DNA of 64,000 bases, from positions 1 to 64,000 of the IMG/VR virus record IMGVR_UViG_3300028048_000056. One strand, 5' to 3'. The notes beneath the pieces are model-generated. The model saw only the letters and a program-made list of their open reading frames with translations, searched no databases and was not told the DNA's origin. Below are positions 20,343 to 59,570 of the stretch, piece by piece; within the stretch, counting starts at the first letter, position 1, and every line of letters begins with the position of its first letter. Position numbers and translations under genes: made by a program. Source of the DNA: a virus. Lineage: Duplodnaviria > Caudoviricetes.

Positions 20343-21269
20343 ATGGATAGAAGAGCAAGTTATCTACACAGGTTGAGAACTATCGACCGTGATTGTAAGA
20401 ATATATGCAGATACGGTCGAAATCTGACACTTCTGGCAGCACAAGGTGAACTGCCTAAATGCTATGCCAGGAGCAAGGAAATCGAGGAGATACGCATAGC
20501 TCTGCGTAGGAGAACCAAGCCTAATGTAATACTTCTCGGACCTTCTGGTTGTGGTAAGACTGCGATTGTAGAGGGTCTGGCTCAGGTACTTGAGGAAGAG
20601 CTCTACGCTAACTGGCTGTCAAAGCTGAAAGAAGAAGATGATGAGTACTTCCCTGGAATAGATGAAGCAGCTTCTCCTGAACTCCCTATTGTAATGGAGT
20701 TATTGTCTGGTAATCTGCTGGCAGGTTCCAAGTATCGAGGTGAGTTCGAAGAACGTCTAGAAGCAATAATCGATGAACTCAGACGCACAGAGAAGAAAGT
20801 TCTGCTCTTCATCGATGAAGCTCACATGCTGACTACGCTGGGTGAGGCAGAAGGTGCTGTATCGGCTGCTAATCTGCTGAAACCAGCACTCGCTCGAGGT
20901 GAGTTCTGCGTTATCACCGCAACCACTACAGATGAGTTCAATGAGTGCTTAGCCAAGGATAAGGCACTTACCCGTCGCTTTAATCGGATTGATGTGAAGT
21001 CTATACCGGCAGATGAACAGCCGGAATGCGCTGTTCAGATTATCCAGGAGTACTCGAATACATTTCACATTCCTATCGACAGCAAGATTGACAAAGATTT
21101 CCTCACACAGATTATTGAAGGACCTCTTTCCAAAGAGTTGTTTCCTTGTAAGTTCGTCGACATAATCGACCAGATGTTCGCAGAAGCATCTTATAGAAAG
21201 TTAGAATGTGTCACCAAGCAGCTTATGCAGTCAACTCTGGTCCAGCAGACCAGGTGTCTGGTAGTCTGA
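20343..21269 (+). CDS. ClpA/ClpB-type AAA+ ATPase (single NBD1-like module)
   Basis: GPSGCGKTAIVEGLA, AGSKYRGEFEERL, LFIDEAH, LLKPALARG, DKALTRRF. Confidence 0.88.
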   Translation: MDRRASYLHRLRTIDRDCKNICRYGRNLTLLAAQGELPKCYARSKEIEEIRIALRRRTKPNVILLGPSGCGKTAIVEGLAQVLEEELYANWLSKLKEEDDEYFPGIDEAASPELPIVMELLSGNLLAGSKYRGEFEERLEAIIDELRRTEKKVLLFIDEAHMLTTLGEAEGAVSAANLLKPALARGEFCVITATTTDEFNECLAKDKALTRRFNRIDVKSIPADEQPECAVQIIQEYSNTFHIPIDSKIDKDFLTQIIEGPLSKELFPCKFVDIIDQMFAEASYRKLECVTKQLMQSTLVQQTRCLVV

Positions 21270-21369
21270 TGTTAGTCTGATATTTAACCACAACTTCGTT
21301 TCATGGTGTGATTTGTGTTATAATAATGATACAATAAACATAAAACCGACGCAGACAAGGAGGCGTACT

Positions 21370-21648
21370 ATGGCAGAGATAACGATTACTCGTAAGATGG
21401 ACATCGAAGCTCTCAGAAGCCTTTGTATCAGATACAATCTGTATCGCGAAGGTACGAATGAGCAGTATAGCGAGATGTTTGCTATGGCAAGGGGTGCTCG
21501 TACAGATGAGGGATTTCTCAGAGTAGCACAGAATATCTGGGAACATTCTTGCACAGATGACCTGATTACAGCAGGTTTTGAGTACGAAACGCTGTGCTGG
21601 TATGTGTTCAACGACTGCGTGAGGACGTACATCAATGCAGAAGACTAA
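21370..21648 (+). CDS. Hypothetical protein
   Basis: Promoter 21292 plus AAGGAGG. Confidence 0.7.
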   Translation: MAEITITRKMDIEALRSLCIRYNLYREGTNEQYSEMFAMARGARTDEGFLRVAQNIWEHSCTDDLITAGFEYETLCWYVFNDCVRTYINAED

Positions 21649-21889
21649 TCCGTTCGTTCAGAATGTCCTTGTAAACGGTAGCCTGGTTGTGTTCGGGTTT
21701 CCGAAAGACATAGACAACCCTGTGGGTAAGTTCTTAGTCTACAGAGTTGTCGACGGCCGTGCTTGGTATTGGTGGGTTACCGAATCCAAACTCAAAGCAC
21801 TTGCCAGTGCTTCAGGTGTGTGCGGTCATGTAGAACAGATAAGAACATTTGAGCGACCGAAAGGAGGCAGACATGGCAGCAGAACCTAG
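21635..21889 (+). CDS. Hypothetical protein
   Basis: Overlap-coupled ORF. Confidence 0.55.
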   Translation: MQKTNPFVQNVLVNGSLVVFGFPKDIDNPVGKFLVYRVVDGRAWYWWVTESKLKALASASGVCGHVEQIRTFERPKGGRHGSRT

Positions 21890-22124
21890 AAGGATATGCT
21901 CACCTATCAACTACGCAAATCTAGTAATATTCACGAAGGGTGCTGAACTTCCCGCAACCGCAGTCAATGACAAAGGCGAGAACGTAATCGTAACGACAGA
22001 ACCTAGCGACATGGGTATGTGCTATCGACTTGATACTTACCAGAACAATGGCTGGGTTCGCATCAATCGATATTACAAGGACGGTGCCGGGGATGAAGAG
22101 TATGATATGGGAGGTGAAAGATAA
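21873..22124 (+). CDS. Hypothetical protein
   Basis: AAGGAGG RBS. Confidence 0.65.
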   Translation: MAAEPRRICSPINYANLVIFTKGAELPATAVNDKGENVIVTTEPSDMGMCYRLDTYQNNGWVRINRYYKDGAGDEEYDMGGER

Positions 22125-22597
22125 TGAAGGTTAATCCTGAGATTTCGGTATTCACCACGTTTCCCAACAATGGCTATCTTGCATTAGTTTTTCAGGATAA
22201 CGGTGTAGCATTTACAGCAAATTGTAAAAAGAAGGATGCGTACGAAGGACTCCTAGAGGTCTGTGCTAACTTCCTGCTGGACATTATCGACGATGTAAGA
22301 CCTGATGTTCAAGAGCTCAAGCAGAGTCCGGAAATGTCTGACGAAGACTTGGAAAAGATAGACCGATATGCCACAGCTGTTGCAGCTGCTCACTCTGCGT
22401 TTTGCCAGGCTTTAGAGTCTCGTTTGTCTATAGGAAGCGTGACAAAGCAGCTTGAAGCGTCTGGTCTTCCTCATGTCTTTGCTAAGATGCTGGCAACCGG
22501 TATGGAAGCTTTTCCGGGAAAGTTCGAGAAAGCATCTAACGACGACTGTGATGAGGAAGATGAAGATTCATCCGATGACAACGACAATCTGGATTGA
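22124..22597 (+). CDS. Hypothetical protein, acidic tail
   Basis: GGAGGTGA RBS, TAATG coupling. Confidence 0.7.
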   Translation: MKVNPEISVFTTFPNNGYLALVFQDNGVAFTANCKKKDAYEGLLEVCANFLLDIIDDVRPDVQELKQSPEMSDEDLEKIDRYATAVAAAHSAFCQALESRLSIGSVTKQLEASGLPHVFAKMLATGMEAFPGKFEKASNDDCDEEDEDSSDDNDNLD

Positions 22598-22688
22598 GAA
22601 TCCAGCATCTTCGGTTCAAAACCGAGTGCTATGTTATAATACATATACAATAAACATAAATCAAATTCTCATGTGTAGGAGGTAACAG

Positions 22689-22940
22689 ATGAAAGTCACG
22701 GTTGTTGCATTTAATACTGCCGAGGCTCATAAGGCAAAAGAGGGGCTGGTAAAACTCAAGAAAGGCGTAAGTGAGTTCAGAAGGGACCTTAGAGATAACA
22801 GAGTGGACCAGGACACGCTTGAGTCTTTCGTGAAAGGGCTTCGTGTAATCGCAGACTACTTTGAAGGGTTCATGAAAGATGAGCCTGAAGAAGTCAGACA
22901 GGATGTATCTGAGCCCATTATCGAGTCAGAAGACTACTAA
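22689..22940 (+). CDS. Hypothetical protein
   Basis: Promoter 22607 plus RBS. Confidence 0.7.
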   Translation: MKVTVVAFNTAEAHKAKEGLVKLKKGVSEFRRDLRDNRVDQDTLESFVKGLRVIADYFEGFMKDEPEEVRQDVSEPIIESEDY

Positions 22941-22989
22941 TCCAGAATCTTGCTGAGTTTATCTATCCCAGTCCTACTGGGATTCTGGC

Positions 22990-23064
22990 TGGGGCATAGC
23001 CAAGTGGTAAGGCAACAGCCTTTGACACTGTCATTCGTGGGTTCGAATCCCGCTGCCCCAACCA
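22990..23064 (+). tRNA. tRNA-Gln(UUG)
   Basis: TGGGGCA/TGCCCCA, ACAGC-CT TTG AC-ACTGT, GTTCGAATC, CCA. Confidence 0.9.
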
Positions 23065-23113
23065 ATGTGCTTGACACGCCTCTGTTCCATGCGTACCACG
23101 TCAAGCCTACAGT

Positions 23114-23210
23114 ATGCGTTACCTGGCCTGGTAGCATAGAGGTTAGTGCGCGGACGCCTAATAAGGGTCTAAGACGCGGGTTCGAGTCCCGCCTGGGTTG
23201 GGTAACGCAT
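23114..23210 (+). ncRNA. tRNA-like RNA with extended acceptor stem, aberrant anticodon arm, no CCA
   Basis: ATGCGTTACC/GGTAACGCAT closing stem; D arm GCAT..GTGC; GCGGG-TTCGAGT-CCCGC. Confidence 0.6.
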
Positions 23211-23220
23211 GCTTAAATAT

Positions 23221-23299
23221 TCTCGAGTCTAATGGTAGGTAGGCAGGCTGTGTCGCGATAGCTTGTCGGTGTGGAGTTCAATTCCCACCTCGAGAACCA
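23221..23299 (+). ncRNA. tRNA-like RNA with CCA, minimal D arm and 10-bp anticodon-position stem
   Basis: TCTCGAG/CTCGAGA-A-CCA; GGCAGGCTGT/ATAGCTTGTC; GTTCAATTC T loop. Confidence 0.65.
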
Positions 23300-23659
23300 A
23301 TACCGATATCTGGTCAATATACCCTGGCTTACCGAAACAAAGGTTGAAATAGATGAGGGAGTAGCCTGAACCTTGCAGTCCATAATGACGGATTGGGGTG
23401 AACCGTAGATTACGCTTTGACGTAATAAATGGCTTTGACTAAATGAAGATGATGCTCATTGGGGTGTGTCGTTATAAAGAAGGGAAGGCGGCACCAAAGG
23501 ATATCGGAATACCAAAGCCTGTGTATCAGGCAACATCCTTTCGGTTTCTAGCAGCCAATGTGTCTTCATTTGCCATAAGGAAGACCTCCTAAGTGATTTA
23601 CCCGAGTGGGTTGATGCTAGATAGACCCGCTCACCATTATATGTGGAAAGGAGAATATC

Positions 23660-23956
23660 ATGTTCGGTTCAAAAGAATTTATCAAATTCGGTAAGAAGGT
23701 TGTTGCAGACTATTTCAATCAGCATCGCGATGTGACAGACTCTCAGGAGCTCAAAGCAGAAGATGTCTATGTCGTCTGGTACAGCAAGACTTTACAGAAT
23801 CATAAGGGTCTGTTCAGCACTCCCATGTCCGACGGTATGTATTATGAGGTTACCTACAACGGCGACAATGACGAGGCTTACATCGACGCCTACAAGAAGT
23901 GGGAGAACTTCAAGGTCGAGTGGCCTAAGTCTTATCTAGAAGCCAGCCAGAAATAA
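23660..23956 (+). CDS. DUF6275-like protein
   Basis: VYVVWYSKTLQNHK..ST..SDGMYYEVTYNGD..YIDAYKKWEN. Confidence 0.75.
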   Translation: MFGSKEFIKFGKKVVADYFNQHRDVTDSQELKAEDVYVVWYSKTLQNHKGLFSTPMSDGMYYEVTYNGDNDEAYIDAYKKWENFKVEWPKSYLEASQK

Positions 23957-24079
23957 GCAAGATACGAGCCATCAATTCTAGATTAGGACCTCCGAATGTG
24001 CTTCCGGAAGGGATTCTAGATTACCTTCCGTTCACATAATAGACAGGAGGACGGCTCATATTATAAAGGAGCAATCATT

Positions 24080-24565
24080 ATGGATGAATCTATTAAGAAG
24101 AATGTAGACCACCCGTCGCATTACAACCAGCCTGGTAAGAAAGAATGCATCGAGGAAATGCGTGACCAGTTCGGTGACCTTGCTGTATATTGGTTCTGCA
24201 AACTCAATGCCTACAAGTACGGATATCGTGCAGGAACTAAAGACGGTAATAGCGAGGAACAAGATAAAGCTAAAATCAAATGGTACGATGATTATGCTGA
24301 AAAACTTCAGTCAGGTGTTAAGATGGACGATGTAATGAAAGCACTTCAACCTTGGGATGATGCAGTTGCTAGAGCATCCGATAGAATTATCGGTGTGGAT
24401 TTAGCACAGAAACCAAGTGTAGCTGTTAATACCTGTCCTATCGGTAAGATTGATTGTGGTAGGTTTGACTGCTATGATTGTGATGAAAAGAAAGCCTTTG
24501 ATGCTTCCTGGAGTTCGACTGAAGAGCACACACCAATAATAGGTGGTACAGATGGCAGAATATAA
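24080..24565 (+). CDS. DUF3310-like protein
   Basis: VDHPSHYN..KECIE..NAYKY..RAG.K..EQDKAK..WY. Confidence 0.75.
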   Translation: MDESIKKNVDHPSHYNQPGKKECIEEMRDQFGDLAVYWFCKLNAYKYGYRAGTKDGNSEEQDKAKIKWYDDYAEKLQSGVKMDDVMKALQPWDDAVARASDRIIGVDLAQKPSVAVNTCPIGKIDCGRFDCYDCDEKKAFDASWSSTEEHTPIIGGTDGRI

Positions 24566-24710
24566 TTTCTGGGACGATAGGACTACGGAGGATAATGACG
24601 AGAACTATTGTCCCATTATTGATGGTCATTGCTACGATATGAGCAAATGTGACGAGTGTGATAATAACGCTCGATTTGTTCAACAATTCCAAAATCTAGG
24701 AGGTAAAGAA

Positions 24711-25436
24711 ATGCAAGTAAAGCTGCTTAACTACACACCACATCCAGAGGATACCGTAGCCGCTGCTGCTAGATTGTGCTATTCAAAAGAAGACATAGCT
24801 GATTTGTGGAAAGACTGCGGTGAGAAAGAAAATTCAAGGTACATTCAGATGTTGTCTGAACTGGGCCATGAATCACCATTCGAGCACGTCACTTTCACAT
24901 TCGGAATAAGTGGCATATCTCGTGCGTGTTCCCACCAGTTGGTAAGACACCGCATAGCATCTTACAGCCAGAAGAGTCAACGCTATGTCGACGAATGTCA
25001 GTTCGAGTATGTTACACCACCTGCGATACGTGGTAATGACGTGCTAGAAAGCATATATCAAGATACAATGTGCATGATAGAAAGCCGATATGACATAATC
25101 CGACAGGCTTTGTCTTCTAGGTATGTAGAGTCAGGCATGGCTCAGAAAGATGCGGAGAAGAAGGCGAACGAGGACGCCAGAATGGTGCTTCCTAACGCTT
25201 GTACAACATCTATCATCGTCACCATGAATGTCAGAAGTCTGTGGAACTTCTTTAAGCATAGGTGTTGCAACCGTGCTCAATGGGAGATACGTGACTTGGC
25301 TAATCAGATGCTTGATATATGCCAGTCAGTAGCACCAAATCTATTCAAATACGCAGGACCTACCTGTGCAGTCACAGGCAAGTGCCCTGAAGGAAAGATG
25401 TCTTGTGGACATCCAATCAAGAAGGAGGTTATCTAA
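24711..25436 (+). CDS. thyX: FAD-dependent thymidylate synthase
   Basis: GHESPFEH, SRACSHQLVRHRIASYSQKSQRY, EDARMVLP, AQWEIR. Confidence 0.95.
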   Translation: MQVKLLNYTPHPEDTVAAAARLCYSKEDIADLWKDCGEKENSRYIQMLSELGHESPFEHVTFTFGISGISRACSHQLVRHRIASYSQKSQRYVDECQFEYVTPPAIRGNDVLESIYQDTMCMIESRYDIIRQALSSRYVESGMAQKDAEKKANEDARMVLPNACTTSIIVTMNVRSLWNFFKHRCCNRAQWEIRDLANQMLDICQSVAPNLFKYAGPTCAVTGKCPEGKMSCGHPIKKEVI

Positions 25437-26173
25437 TGAGTATGTCAGAATGGGCTGCGGAGGAAGTCCGCATTGCATGCGAGCGTGAGCGAGCTACAAT
25501 TATCGAAACCGAGAAGGACGTAGACGCGATGATGCAGGCATACACAGAGAGCTGCTACCAGAGTGCTCTCAAAGCCTACAACTCACTCTGTGGTGATGGA
25601 CATTCAGGTATGAGTTTCAGCATCACTGCAGGTATCTTAAAGAGGCTCTGTTCAGGGTACCCACTTACACCTATCGATGATACCGAAGACGTCTGGAACC
25701 TGGTTAGGGAAACTTCGGATAAGAAAGAATACCAGTGTCGCAGGATGTCCTCACTTTTCAAAACGGTGTCTAAGATAGACGGTTCTGTTCAGTTTCATGA
25801 TATTGACAGATTCCTTTGCGTCGACCCGAACGGTACCACATACACTAACAATTTCATCAATCAGCAGCTCAGCAAGCTGTATCCGCTCACGATGCCTTAT
25901 ATGCCTGAAGGCAAATTCCTGGTTAAGGCGTTCGACTTTGCCACCAATGCTAATCCAGGTGAGTTCGACACAATCCTTATTCGTTCTGTCAAGGAGCCGA
26001 ATGGTCAAGAGGTGTTACTCAACCTGTGCTTCAAAGAGACCGAGAAGGGCTTCGAGCAAATTCAGCTGAAAGAGTACGAAGAGAGGTATAAAGCATTCCT
26101 TGCTAGTGCCGAGTTGCAGAAGACAGCAGAGAAGATTATCGAAGCAGTAGATGATGCTGTAGATAACCTGTAA
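25436..26173 (+). CDS. Hypothetical phage protein
   Basis: AAGGAGG RBS; 245 aa. Confidence 0.75.
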   Translation: MSMSEWAAEEVRIACERERATIIETEKDVDAMMQAYTESCYQSALKAYNSLCGDGHSGMSFSITAGILKRLCSGYPLTPIDDTEDVWNLVRETSDKKEYQCRRMSSLFKTVSKIDGSVQFHDIDRFLCVDPNGTTYTNNFINQQLSKLYPLTMPYMPEGKFLVKAFDFATNANPGEFDTILIRSVKEPNGQEVLLNLCFKETEKGFEQIQLKEYEERYKAFLASAELQKTAEKIIEAVDDAVDNL

Positions 26174-28632: not shown

Positions 28633-28707
28633 TCGCAACTTCGTATGCGTATTGTATTCATGTTATAATATAGATACAATAAGAACAATGTGTAGGAGGT
28701 ACTGTAT

Positions 28708-41260: not shown

Positions 41261-41346
41261 TGTAGGAACTTCGTAAACGACACCAGCGTGTGTTATAATG
41301 TAAGCACAATAAAACACAAACCGATAAGGTATAGGAGGAAAAGATT

Positions 41347-42006
41347 ATGGCAAACGAGAATATGGTTCAGAACGCAGAGGCTATCAACAAGACTGTTATC
41401 GTTAAGGAGGATGCTACTATGGCAAACGAGAAGGTTATCACAGAGGCAATCGAGACTACCGAGACACCTGCAGTAACACTGCCGAAGTTCAACGACGTAA
41501 TCATTCCGGCAGATGAGGACAGAGAGATGCTGCTCATCACCGCAACTCGCAACAAGAACGACGCTATGTTCTGGAACTACATTACAGTTCCGGCAGGCAC
41601 CGACCCTAGGGAGTTCATCAAGACAGTCACCGAGAACAAGTTTGTCAACCTCGTCGATGCTCGTAACGTCAGAGCATTCATCGAAGCAGGTGCTCCGCTC
41701 AGAGGAATGGCAAGCACAATCGCAGACTTCGCAGCTCGTTACGCTAAGACAAAGGGCGAAGTAACCGATAAGGCAGCGCTCGTACTCAGAGAGTTCACAG
41801 ACATCATTGCTCAGGTTGATGCTGGCACACTCGAGGGCAGATGGGACAACCCTGAGGCAATTGCCAAAGCCGAAGCAAAGGCAAAGGAAGAGGCTGACAA
41901 GGCAGCAGCAAAGGCTGCTAAGGAAGCCGAGAAGGCAGCAAAGAAAGCAGCAGCCGAAGCTCCTACAGAGGACGAGGTTGAGGACCCGTTCGATGTAGCA
42001 GAGTAA
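41347..42006 (+). CDS. Early protein, paralog family copy 3 (Ala/Lys/Glu-rich tail)
   Basis: LLITATR..KFVN..LRGMASTIADF.ARY; promoter 41267. Confidence 0.8.
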   Translation: MANENMVQNAEAINKTVIVKEDATMANEKVITEAIETTETPAVTLPKFNDVIIPADEDREMLLITATRNKNDAMFWNYITVPAGTDPREFIKTVTENKFVNLVDARNVRAFIEAGAPLRGMASTIADFAARYAKTKGEVTDKAALVLREFTDIIAQVDAGTLEGRWDNPEAIAKAEAKAKEEADKAAAKAAKEAEKAAKKAAAEAPTEDEVEDPFDVAE

Positions 42007-42039
42007 TCTAACCAACACTCGACCTCCTAAGTCGAAGTC

Positions 42040-42070
42040 AAGAGCCCTGGGCGATGAGCCTGGGGCTCTT
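42040..42070 (+). terminator. Terminator-like hairpin
   Basis: AAGAGCCCTGGGC/GCCTGGGGCTCTT. Confidence 0.65.
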
Positions 42071-42169
42071 GCTGCGGTATCATGGTTCTGGAAACTTCGT
42101 GATGCTGGTGTAGGTGTGTTATAATATAGATACAATAAAACAAGTCCTAGACCATAAGGAGGAAACGGT

Positions 42170-59309: not shown

Positions 59310-59387
59310 CGGTACATAACTTCGTTTCAAATACCTCCTATGTGTTATAATATGAGTATAACGATAACACATAGGAGGTGTTTCTGT

Positions 59388-59570
59388 ATGGAACGGATGA
59401 AGATGCGATTGACGGACCCGGAGGTCGCCGCCAACCTACGTGAAAATGCCGAAGCATTGCAGAAGGTCGGCATTGACCCTGATATCTCTACGCTTAGGTA
59501 CATCAAGTTATCTGCGTATGAGGATAACGAACCCAATCAGAAGATTGCATGGAAGGAGGATAAGAATTGA
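59388..59570 (+). CDS. Small hypothetical protein
   Basis: Promoter 59318 plus RBS. Confidence 0.65.
   Translation: MERMKMRLTDPEVAANLRENAEALQKVGIDPDISTLRYIKLSAYEDNEPNQKIAWKEDKN

What the first reader, a model, noticed from the sequence alone, without database searches (positions are those of the whole stretch)
23517..23633. Hairpin-flanked sequence antisense to the consensus translation start of the phage's own early genes
Seen: between hairpins GCCTG/CAGGC and GAGTGGGTT/GACCCGCTC lies TTTGCCATAA-GGAAG-ACCTCCTAAGT, the reverse complement of ACTTAGGAGGT-N5-TTATGGCAAA. Early starts match in both blocks with similar spacing: 31748 (ACTTAGGAGGT-N5-TTATGGC), 34442 (CTTAGGAGGT-N4-TTATGGCAAA), 41347 (TAGGAGG-N6-TTATGGCAAA), also 37306, 43573, 44991. 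It lies on the strand transcribed with the tRNA cluster. Inference: a trans-acting sRNA shutting off early (or host) translation. Alternative: a real minus-strand 16-codon ORF (MANEDTLAARNRKDVA).
Basis: partly seen in the sequence, partly recalled or inferred. Interest (0 to 1): 0.7.

Follow-up and report, generated by a model that had tools for sequence, protein, structure and literature searches.

The report
Phage leader RNA mirroring ribosome sites
A conserved, folded, non-coding RNA stretch at the end of this uncultured phage's tRNA operon reads as the exact mirror image of the ribosome-landing site of a subset of the phage's own early genes. It most likely controls translation by base pairing, certainly not as a tiny reverse-strand gene, but no expression data exist.

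Summary
Window 23562-23594 (+) mirrors the start region of a tagged subset of the phage's early genes: an 11-nt tag plus Shine-Dalgarno block and a 7-10-nt start-codon block. The combined pattern has 7 matches in the window against 0.01 expected, and this is the only one on the minus strand.

It lies in a conserved ~140-nt non-coding element (23517-23652). That element occurs once per genome in four lineages of uncultured ~150-kb phages, always between the last tRNA(-like) gene and a DUF6275 gene.

The 16-codon minus-strand ORF is not conserved (16, 30-62, 5 codons, or absent) and has no convincing promoter. The plus strand must be transcribed.

Comparative folding gives four hairpins. Either an invariant pyrimidine tract at the 5' edge or the mirror tract itself is predicted to mask the DUF6275 ribosome site.

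- For trans action: both blocks are exposed when the RNA starts at H0, and the same 12-mer recurs in a conserved 3'-UTR hairpin loop at 42021-42032.
- Against: the mirror tract is degenerate in one lineage and lost in another, while the targets persist.

The scan has noted similar tRNA-linked anti-RBS RNAs in other phages.

The parts
23517..23531 (+). H0: 5-bp hairpin at the 5' edge. In relatives it starts 0-2 nt after the CCA of the preceding tRNA or tRNA-like gene.
   Evidence: Three unrelated stem sequences in lineages A, B/C and D all form a hairpin at this place.
23536..23542 (+). aSD1: pyrimidine tract, identical in lineages A, B and D and changed at two bases in C. It is complementary to the Shine-Dalgarno region of the DUF6275 gene and forms the 5' strand of long-range helix P1.
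   Evidence: helix 1: 98.6% of cells paired; P 0.80-0.95 when the RNA starts at H0.
23543..23556 (+). H1: 4-bp hairpin with invariant loop 23547-23552.
   Evidence: One pair shows three standard types (U-G, U-A, A-U).
23562..23585 (+). H2: 6-7-bp hairpin. Its loop (23568-23579) holds the complement of the start-codon block (CAT at 23574-23576).
   Evidence: One compensatory C-G to U-A change in lineage C.
23584..23594 (+). aSD2: exact complement of the tag plus Shine-Dalgarno 11-mer of tagged early genes. It overlaps the last 2 nt of H2 and is otherwise unpaired.
   Evidence: One mismatch in lineage C and absent in lineage D.
23604..23632 (+). H3: 9-bp hairpin with near-invariant 11-nt loop. 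Loop bases 23616-23621 are complementary to the H1 loop (possible 6-bp kissing contact). It is followed by ACCA (23633-23636) in lineages A and B only.
   Evidence: P 0.85-1.0 in every context tested.
23646..23652 (+). Shine-Dalgarno region of the DUF6275 gene; 3' strand of P1.
   Evidence: Predicted paired at P 0.95, rank 9 of 114 genes.
23660..23956 (+). DUF6275 gene, the invariable downstream neighbour of the element.
   Evidence: PF19791, 7.6e-32.
23526..23576 (-). 16-codon open frame behind the mirrored start site; judged not to be a gene.
   Evidence: 16, 16, 62, 48, 62, 30, 5 codons, none in lineage D; no promoter.
42019..42071 (+). Second plus-strand copy of the mirror 12-mer (42021-42032). 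It lies in the 7-nt loop of hairpin 42019-42035, in the 3' UTR of early gene 41347-42006, and is followed by a 14-bp hairpin at 42039-42071.
   Evidence: Nearly invariant in all four lineages. Substitution periodicity shows that the plus ORF is the real gene.

Best explanation
The element (23517-23652) is a plus-strand, non-coding, structured RNA. It is the last module of the phage's tRNA/tRNA-like operon and at the same time the 5' leader of the DUF6275 gene.

Shown by comparison:
- Four hairpins, H0 to H3, are kept in four phage lineages.
- The loops of H1 and H3 are near-invariant and mutually complementary.
- The element occurs once per genome and always directly in front of DUF6275.

Inferred mechanism:
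- After the upstream tRNA(-like) RNA is cut off at its CCA, H0 caps the new 5' end.
- The leader then masks the DUF6275 ribosome-binding site by pairing it with one of two pyrimidine tracts. One is aSD1 at 23536-23542, which closes a four-way junction. The other is the mirror tract aSD2 at 23584-23594. The result is lower or timed translation of DUF6275.

The mirror of the early start region (start-codon block in the H2 loop, tag plus Shine-Dalgarno block in the H2 flank) is exposed when the RNA starts at H0. It may in addition pair in trans with the about 8 tagged early mRNAs. I regard that as a plausible second function, not an established one.
For: Strand.
- All large genes around the element are on the plus strand.
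- The nearest plus-strand promoter lies at about 22606-22640 and the next only at 28637. DUF6275 and the following genes can therefore only be expressed by transcription through the element.
- G-U pairs occur in 7 cells of the plus-strand helices, against about 1 C-A cell.
- A window-specific C-to-T change in H3 gives G-U on the plus strand.
- Plus-strand folds give the same four hairpins in lineages A, B and C (z -1.4 to -4.4); lineage D folds differently. Minus-strand folds differ from sequence to sequence.

Structure.
- 92.8% of cells are paired, against 40-53% when partners are slid.
- H0 has three unrelated stem sequences.
- There is compensatory or three-type variation in H1 and H2.

Linkage.
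- A covariance model finds exactly one copy per genome in five genomes, always in front of DUF6275. The upstream neighbour varies.

Cis masking.
- With the 5' end at H0, the DUF6275 Shine-Dalgarno pairs with aSD1 at P 0.75-0.97 in lineages A and B and about 0.7 in lineage C, where a changed tract pairs in a shifted register.
- With longer 5' context the ribosome site mostly stays paired: core P 0.7-1.0 in 8 of 9 folds (L002 with 110 nt upstream is lower, 0.44-0.68). The partner switches between aSD1, aSD2 and other sequence.
- Its predicted pairing of 0.95 ranks 9th of 114 genes, whose mean is 0.57.
Against: - Covariation is thin. There are only four lineages, and only 2 of 31 pairs change on both sides. 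P1 and the loop-loop contact do not vary, so they are untested by evolution.
- In this window a 215-nt insert precedes H0. When it is included, global folding loses P1, H1 and H2 (P 0.01-0.07) and keeps only H3. The cis model here therefore needs processing at about 23516 or local co-transcriptional folding.
- In lineage D the best fold masks the ribosome site with a different, local hairpin.
- Cis masking alone does not explain why the mirror extends to the private tag and to the start-codon block.
- There are no transcript data.
Confidence: 0.5

Rival explanations
1. First reader's model. The element is released as a stable small RNA from the tRNA operon. It acts in trans, pairing through the H2 loop and its 3' flank with the tag, Shine-Dalgarno and start codon of the tagged early mRNAs. 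This shuts off their translation as an RNA counterpart of T4 RegA/RegB. It is compatible with the best explanation as a second function.
For: - The two-block mirror is far beyond chance.
- It matches a private subset of starts: 8 of 151, with 7 in the early cassettes. The tag bases are not those complementary to the 16S tail (own knowledge of the Firmicute anti-SD sequence).
- Both blocks are predicted mostly unpaired when the RNA starts at H0.
- Duplex energies with about 15-20 phage starts are -25 to -34 kcal/mol. The best value for shuffled seeds is -24, and the neighbouring DUF6275 start gives -9.
- The identical 12-mer sits in a hairpin loop in a 3' UTR that is nearly invariant in all four lineages, where a coding explanation is excluded.
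- In lineages A and B, H3 is followed by ACCA, like the other modules of this operon.
Against: - The tract has a central mismatch in lineage C and is deleted or rewritten in lineage D, although tagged starts persist in those genomes.
- The start-codon block differs between lineages A and B without matching changes in the targets.
- No terminator follows H3 in A, B or D, and termination there would silence the downstream genes.
- The RNA is made from the same promoter type as its supposed targets.
- With the 215-nt insert included, the tract is predicted paired.
Confidence: 0.3
2. A real minus-strand mini-gene. A transcript starts near the TATAAT at 23641-23636, carries a top-quality ribosome site, encodes a 16-residue peptide (23576-23526) and ends at hairpin 23531-23517.
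For: - The start site is of perfect early-type quality.
- A perfect TATAAT lies about 45 nt upstream on the minus strand, and an ATAAT core is present in all lineages.
- The only terminator-like call in the region is on the minus strand at 23531-23517.
- Ribosome site and ATG are kept in lineages A, B and C.
Against: - Frame length is 16, 16, 62, 48, 62, 30, 5 codons, and the frame is absent in lineage D. In lineage B it runs on through the antisense of a tRNA-like gene.
- The eight central codons are identical at every base, including third positions, while codons 3 and 6 change freely.
- There is no -35 element, no TG extension, and neither of the two phage promoter motifs on that strand.
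- The U-tract after the hairpin is poor in the relatives.
- Plus-strand G-U pairs would be C-A mismatches on this strand.
Confidence: 0.07
3. A relic. An early-cassette start region was once inverted into this spot. What selection now keeps is only a set of hairpins that serve tRNA-mRNA processing or 5'-end protection. On this view the mirror of the start site has no function of its own and is slowly decaying.
For: - Divergence of the mirror tract between lineages B and C (about 8 of 38 positions, counted by eye on the alignment) is similar to that of the rest of the element.
- The tract decays in lineage C and is lost in lineage D, while the H1 and H3 loops stay invariant.
- H0 abuts a CCA end in every relative.
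Against: - The rest of a cassette (promoter, leader) is not present on the minus strand.
- The spacer has been rebuilt so that both blocks are exposed.
- A second conserved copy of the same 12-mer elsewhere argues for selection on the tract.
Confidence: 0.13

Closest known systems
c4 antisense RNA of phages P1 and P7 (Rfam C4 family; described in PMC5320573)
   Same: A phage-encoded structured RNA, cut out of a longer transcript, whose exposed loops pair with phage mRNA so that a ribosome-binding site is occluded. Two separate complementary blocks are used.
   Different: No sequence or structure match to the Rfam model. Different host group and different fold. Here the RNA is fused to the leader of a gene and follows tRNA genes. 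Processing and trans action are not shown.
Masked start sites of T4 genes e, soc, 49 and I-TevI on read-through transcripts (review PMC3014915)
   Same: A phage gene reached only by read-through transcription has its Shine-Dalgarno and/or start codon locked in a helix with an upstream segment, which limits or times translation.
   Different: In T4 a late promoter inside the structure yields an open mRNA. No internal promoter was found here. The masking strand lies about 100 nt upstream and encloses three hairpins.
icaR 3'-UTR / 5'-UTR pairing in Staphylococcus aureus (PMC3868564)
   Same: A C-rich tract in a non-coding part of an mRNA pairs with a Shine-Dalgarno region and blocks initiation. 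This is the closest parallel for the second copy at 42021-42032, which lies in a 3' UTR.
   Different: A cellular gene with a single target. Here the tract matches a tag shared by several genes.
T4 RNAC and RNAD, small stable RNAs of the T4 tRNA region (PMC3014915), and T4 RegA/RegB
   Same: RNAC and RNAD are non-tRNA stable RNAs co-transcribed with phage tRNAs. RegA and RegB shut off early mRNAs through their start regions, and RegB acts at GGAG.
   Different: RNAC and RNAD have no known function and no reported anti-RBS tract. RegA and RegB are proteins.
RsaE/RoxS-type small RNAs of Firmicutes (own knowledge)
   Same: Unpaired C-rich motifs that target Shine-Dalgarno sequences without Hfq.
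   Different: Not related in sequence and no Rfam hit. Those RNAs are free-standing genes with terminators.

Membership tests
c4 antisense RNA (Rfam RF01695) | Match to the family covariance model | tested here: not met
   cmscan of 21000-26000, both strands, E up to 1: only two tRNAs and four weak unrelated hits, and nothing in 23517-23652.
c4 antisense RNA (Rfam RF01695) | 5' end made by RNase P; loops pair with target mRNA and block its ribosome site | not testable with these tools
   Complementarity is present.
Any curated Rfam riboswitch, thermometer, ribozyme or sRNA family | Match at or near the gathering score | tested here: not met
   no hit on either strand of the element.
tRNA / tmRNA | Recognised by ARAGORN or the Rfam tRNA model | tested here: not met
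   tRNA-Gln and tRNA-Ile lie upstream, and nothing is called in 23517-23652. The four-way junction with an H1-H3 loop contact resembles a cloverleaf in topology only: stem and loop lengths and a 13-nt gap before the closing strand do not fit.
Small protein-coding gene (minus strand) | Reading frame, length and residues conserved among relatives, with excess change at synonymous sites | tested here: not met
   (0-62 codons). (invariant third positions in the core; free non-synonymous change at codons 3 and 6).
Free-standing trans-acting sRNA gene | Own promoter and intrinsic terminator or defined processed ends | tested here: inconclusive
   No promoter of its own and no terminator call on the plus strand. 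Only lineage C has a U-rich run after H3. ACCA after H3 in lineages A and B could mark a processed 3' end, but this is untested.
Cis-acting SD-masking leader | Fixed position in front of one gene, and an upstream tract complementary to that gene's Shine-Dalgarno that is predicted to pair with it | tested here: met
   (one copy, always before DUF6275). (pairing P 0.75-0.97 in A and B, about 0.7 in C; top 8% of genes). Caveat: the prediction depends on the 5' boundary in this window.
Cis-acting SD-masking leader | Compensatory changes in the masking helix | tested here: inconclusive
   The helix is invariant in lineages A, B and D. Lineage C changes two bases and pairs in a shifted register.

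The most novel reading that the evidence does not exclude
This phage clade may run an RNA-only early shut-off. A private tag plus Shine-Dalgarno plus start-codon signature marks about eight early mRNAs. That signature would be read by exposed mirror tracts carried on stable non-coding RNAs: one at the end of the tRNA operon (this element) and one in a 3'-UTR hairpin loop (42019-42035). These RNAs would silence the tagged genes as they accumulate. It would be the antisense equivalent of T4 RegA/RegB, and a function for the non-tRNA RNAs that ride in phage tRNA operons.
Probability: 0.25. Interest if true: 0.75.

Novelty: new variant of a known kind. Interest (0 to 1): 0.5.

Why it matters
Phage tRNA clusters often carry extra stable RNAs whose roles are unknown; T4 RNAC and RNAD have been open for decades. 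Here such an RNA has a readable feature: a mirror of a privately tagged start site.

If it acts in trans, it would show that phages time early-gene translation with antisense RNA rather than with proteins. It would also give a sequence rule (tag plus mirror) for finding such regulons in uncultured phages.

Either way it can be tested with simple reporters.

Tried and rejected
- Near-identity search of the phage collection found nothing. The distant search found only the tRNA and the DUF6275 coding part.
- The exact 26-mer was absent from viral contigs.
- Motif scans of viral, metagenome and genome collections gave only the same four lineages. The six prokaryote hits are chance matches, since the covariance model rejects them.
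- Thirty other DUF6275 loci in AT-rich phages have no such leader.
- A position-weight matrix of start sites without spacing alignment was uninformative (rank 111 of 209).
- The H1 and H3 loop motifs are not repeated in the genome, so they are not operator or promoter repeats. CTAG clustering around 23.5-24.0 kb is not exceptional genome-wide.
- I looked for a promoter between aSD1 and the ribosome site (the T4 gene e model). The best candidate matches 8 of 12 positions and is not conserved in spacing (reading).
- A second promoter class, CCTGA-N12-13-TATAATAG, is absent near the element on both strands.
- The 241-codon minus ORF behind the second mirror copy is a shadow frame.
- A literature search for DUF6275 found nothing.

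Full report
**Setting.**
The window is the first 64 kb of a 162-kb IMG/VR virus record, 45% G+C, about 93% complete. No cultured phage is close. Almost all genes in the window are on the plus strand; a minus-strand block lies at 85-116 kb.

About thirty plus-strand promoters share the module AACTTC-N18-24-TATAAT, and only one faces the other way. A variant of that module at about 22606-22640 drives:
- an 83-codon gene;
- tRNA-Gln and tRNA-Ile;
- a tRNA-like sequence that ARAGORN misses (about 23221-23300);
- a 215-nt stretch;
- the element under study;
- a DUF6275 gene at 23660-23956 (PF19791), followed by DUF3310, ThyX and Tad3-like genes.

The next promoter of this kind is at 28637.

The two hairpins and the sequence between them are as described.
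- The two-block pattern of tag/Shine-Dalgarno and start codon occurs seven times in the window. Six are at plus-strand gene starts and one is here on the minus strand; 0.01 are expected.
- A plain 'CAT, gap, CCTCC' would not be surprising: 3-9 are expected and 1 is seen. The extended identity is what is non-random.
- The match is to a special subset. Of 151 strong ribosome sites, only eight carry the CTT tag directly before AGGAGG, and seven of them head early cassettes between 31.7 and 45 kb.

**Relatives.**
The DUF6275 protein retrieved 36 viral loci. Only six of them, plus six metagenome contigs found by a motif scan, carry the element. They form four lineages:
- A: the window and L044;
- B: L002, L004, L005 and L003;
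- C: L007;
- D: L006, L045 and L047.

A covariance model built on them finds exactly one copy per genome, always immediately upstream of DUF6275. It finds nothing in other DUF6275 loci or in chance hits from prokaryote genomes. Rfam has no family for the element.

The upstream neighbour varies: three kinds of tRNA or tRNA-like gene, whose CCA is followed within 0-2 nt by hairpin H0. In the window alone, a 215-nt module that itself ends in ACCA is inserted between the tRNA-like gene and H0.

**Which strand?**
The minus frame behind the mirrored start is 16 codons in A, 30-62 in B (running on through the antisense of a tRNA-like gene) and 5 in C. It has neither ribosome site nor ATG in D. Its eight central codons are identical at all three positions in every lineage that has the frame, whereas codons 3 and 6 change freely. 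This is the signature of a nucleic-acid constraint, not of a peptide.

There is a perfect TATAAT on the minus strand at 23641-23636. It has no -35 element and no TG extension, and neither phage promoter motif accompanies it.

Three lines favour the plus strand:
- It must be transcribed for DUF6275 to be expressed.
- Its helices contain seven G-U cells against about one C-A cell.
- Plus-strand folds give the same architecture in lineages A, B and C, whereas minus-strand folds do not agree between sequences.

I therefore reject the mini-gene (7%).

**Anatomy on the plus strand.**
- H0 (23517-23531) has three unrelated stem sequences in the four lineages.
- H1 (23543-23556) has an invariant loop, and one of its pairs occurs as U-G, U-A and A-U.
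- H2 (23562-23585) has one compensatory change in lineage C. Its loop holds the complement of the start-codon block. The 3' flank that follows is the complement of the tag plus Shine-Dalgarno.
- H3 (23604-23632) is the most stable part. Its 11-nt loop is nearly invariant, and six of its bases are complementary to the H1 loop.

Overall 92.8% of cells are paired, against 40-53% when partners are slid. Only 2 of 31 pairs change on both sides. The structure is therefore consistent with the data but only weakly proven by covariation.

**A cis function.**
Just before H1 lies a 7-nt pyrimidine tract (23536-23542). It is identical in lineages A, B and D and complementary to the Shine-Dalgarno region of DUF6275 (23646-23652).
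- When the RNA is folded from H0 to codon 8, this long-range helix forms with probability 0.75-0.97 in A and B and about 0.7 in C. It closes a four-way junction around H1-H3. In C two bases of the tract differ and an 8-bp helix forms in a shifted register.
- With 110-300 nt of extra upstream sequence, the ribosome site mostly remains paired in the relatives (core P 0.7-1.0 in 8 of 9 folds). The partner alternates between this tract and the mirror tract of the finding.
- Among 114 plus-strand genes with a comparable ribosome site, the mean predicted pairing is 0.57. DUF6275 scores 0.95 and ranks ninth.

Caveats:
- In this window the 215-nt insert offers competing partners. Global folding that includes it keeps only H3, so masking here presupposes cleavage after the ACCA at about 23516 or local folding.
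- In lineage D a local hairpin does the masking.

Masked starts on read-through transcripts are well known in T4 for genes e, soc, 49 and I-TevI (PMC3014915).

**A trans function?**
Cis masking does not explain why the mirror covers the private tag and the start-codon block.

1. Both blocks are exposed in the H0-started fold. Duplex energies with some 15-20 phage starts reach -25 to -34 kcal/mol, beyond the best value for shuffled seeds (-24), while the neighbouring DUF6275 start gives only -9.
2. The same 12-mer occurs once more on the plus strand, at 42021-42032. It lies in the 7-nt loop of a hairpin in the 3' UTR of early gene 41347-42006 and is followed by a 14-bp hairpin.
   - About 80 nt of this UTR are nearly identical in all four lineages, better conserved than the coding sequence.
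   - Substitutions fall on the third codon positions of the plus frame (31/7/1, 65/22/24 and 87/24/32). The long minus frame behind that second 'start site' is therefore a shadow.
   - Two copies of the reverse complement of one 11-mer in plus-strand non-coding RNA are far more than the roughly 0.03 expected from length alone.

Against the idea:
- In lineage C the tract of the present element has a central mismatch, and in D it is gone. Yet tagged starts persist in those genomes.
- The start-codon block differs between A and B without a matching change in the targets.
- No terminator follows H3.

I put trans action at about 0.3, not exclusive of the cis role. The nearest described systems are the c4 RNA of P1/P7 (PMC5320573) and, for the 3'-UTR copy, icaR (PMC3868564).

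**Verdict.**
The reading is partly supported: plus-strand regulatory RNA yes, mini-ORF no, trans shut-off unproven.

No expression data could be obtained. First-stage and follow-up notes of this scan describe comparable tRNA-linked anti-RBS RNAs in other phages. I treat those as leads, not as evidence.

Noticed in passing
window 42019-42071: Conserved 3'-UTR module of early gene 41347-42006. A hairpin whose 7-nt loop shows the same mirror 12-mer as the finding is followed by a 14-bp hairpin without a U-tract. It is nearly invariant in all four lineages, more so than the coding sequence. It may be the better candidate for an anti-start-site RNA.
   Followed up: partly
window 41293-42018 (-): A 241-codon open frame antisense to gene 41347-42006, preceded by a consensus ribosome site. 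Substitution periodicity shows that the plus frame is the gene and this one is a shadow frame.
   Followed up: yes
window 23221-23300: tRNA-like sequence with a 7-bp acceptor stem, a T arm and an encoded CCA, which neither ARAGORN nor the Rfam tRNA model calls. Relatives carry related copies directly before H0.
   Followed up: partly
window 23301-23516: A 215-nt non-coding insert specific to this genome (absent from L044 and all other relatives). It starts right after a CCA and itself ends in ACCA. It holds purine tracts that compete for the leader's pyrimidine tracts in folding.
   Followed up: partly
window 23934-24025: The next intergenic region has an 11-nt direct repeat (at 23975 and 24013) around a palindromic hairpin, plus another ACCTCC at 23988. 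There are five CTAG sites within 470 nt, although CTAG is under-represented genome-wide (276 seen against 619 expected).
   Followed up: no
window 59318-59390: An anti-Shine-Dalgarno tract inside the spacer of promoter 59318-59351 forms an inverted repeat with the ribosome site of gene 59388. That site has the highest predicted pairing of all genes (0.9998).
   Followed up: no
window 8595, 10199, 10268, 27681, 62284, 63977 and genome 78817: A second promoter-like motif class, TATAATAG with CCTGA 12-13 nt upstream in three cases. It is distinct from the AACTTCG early module and may be the middle or late promoter of the phage sigma factor (18432-19028).
   Followed up: partly
window 25403-26173; 17573-19028: A Tad3-like anti-Thoeris domain protein (Pfam PF25185, 2.9e-26). 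A MazF-like protein overlaps a sigma-factor gene just after the tRNA region.
   Followed up: no
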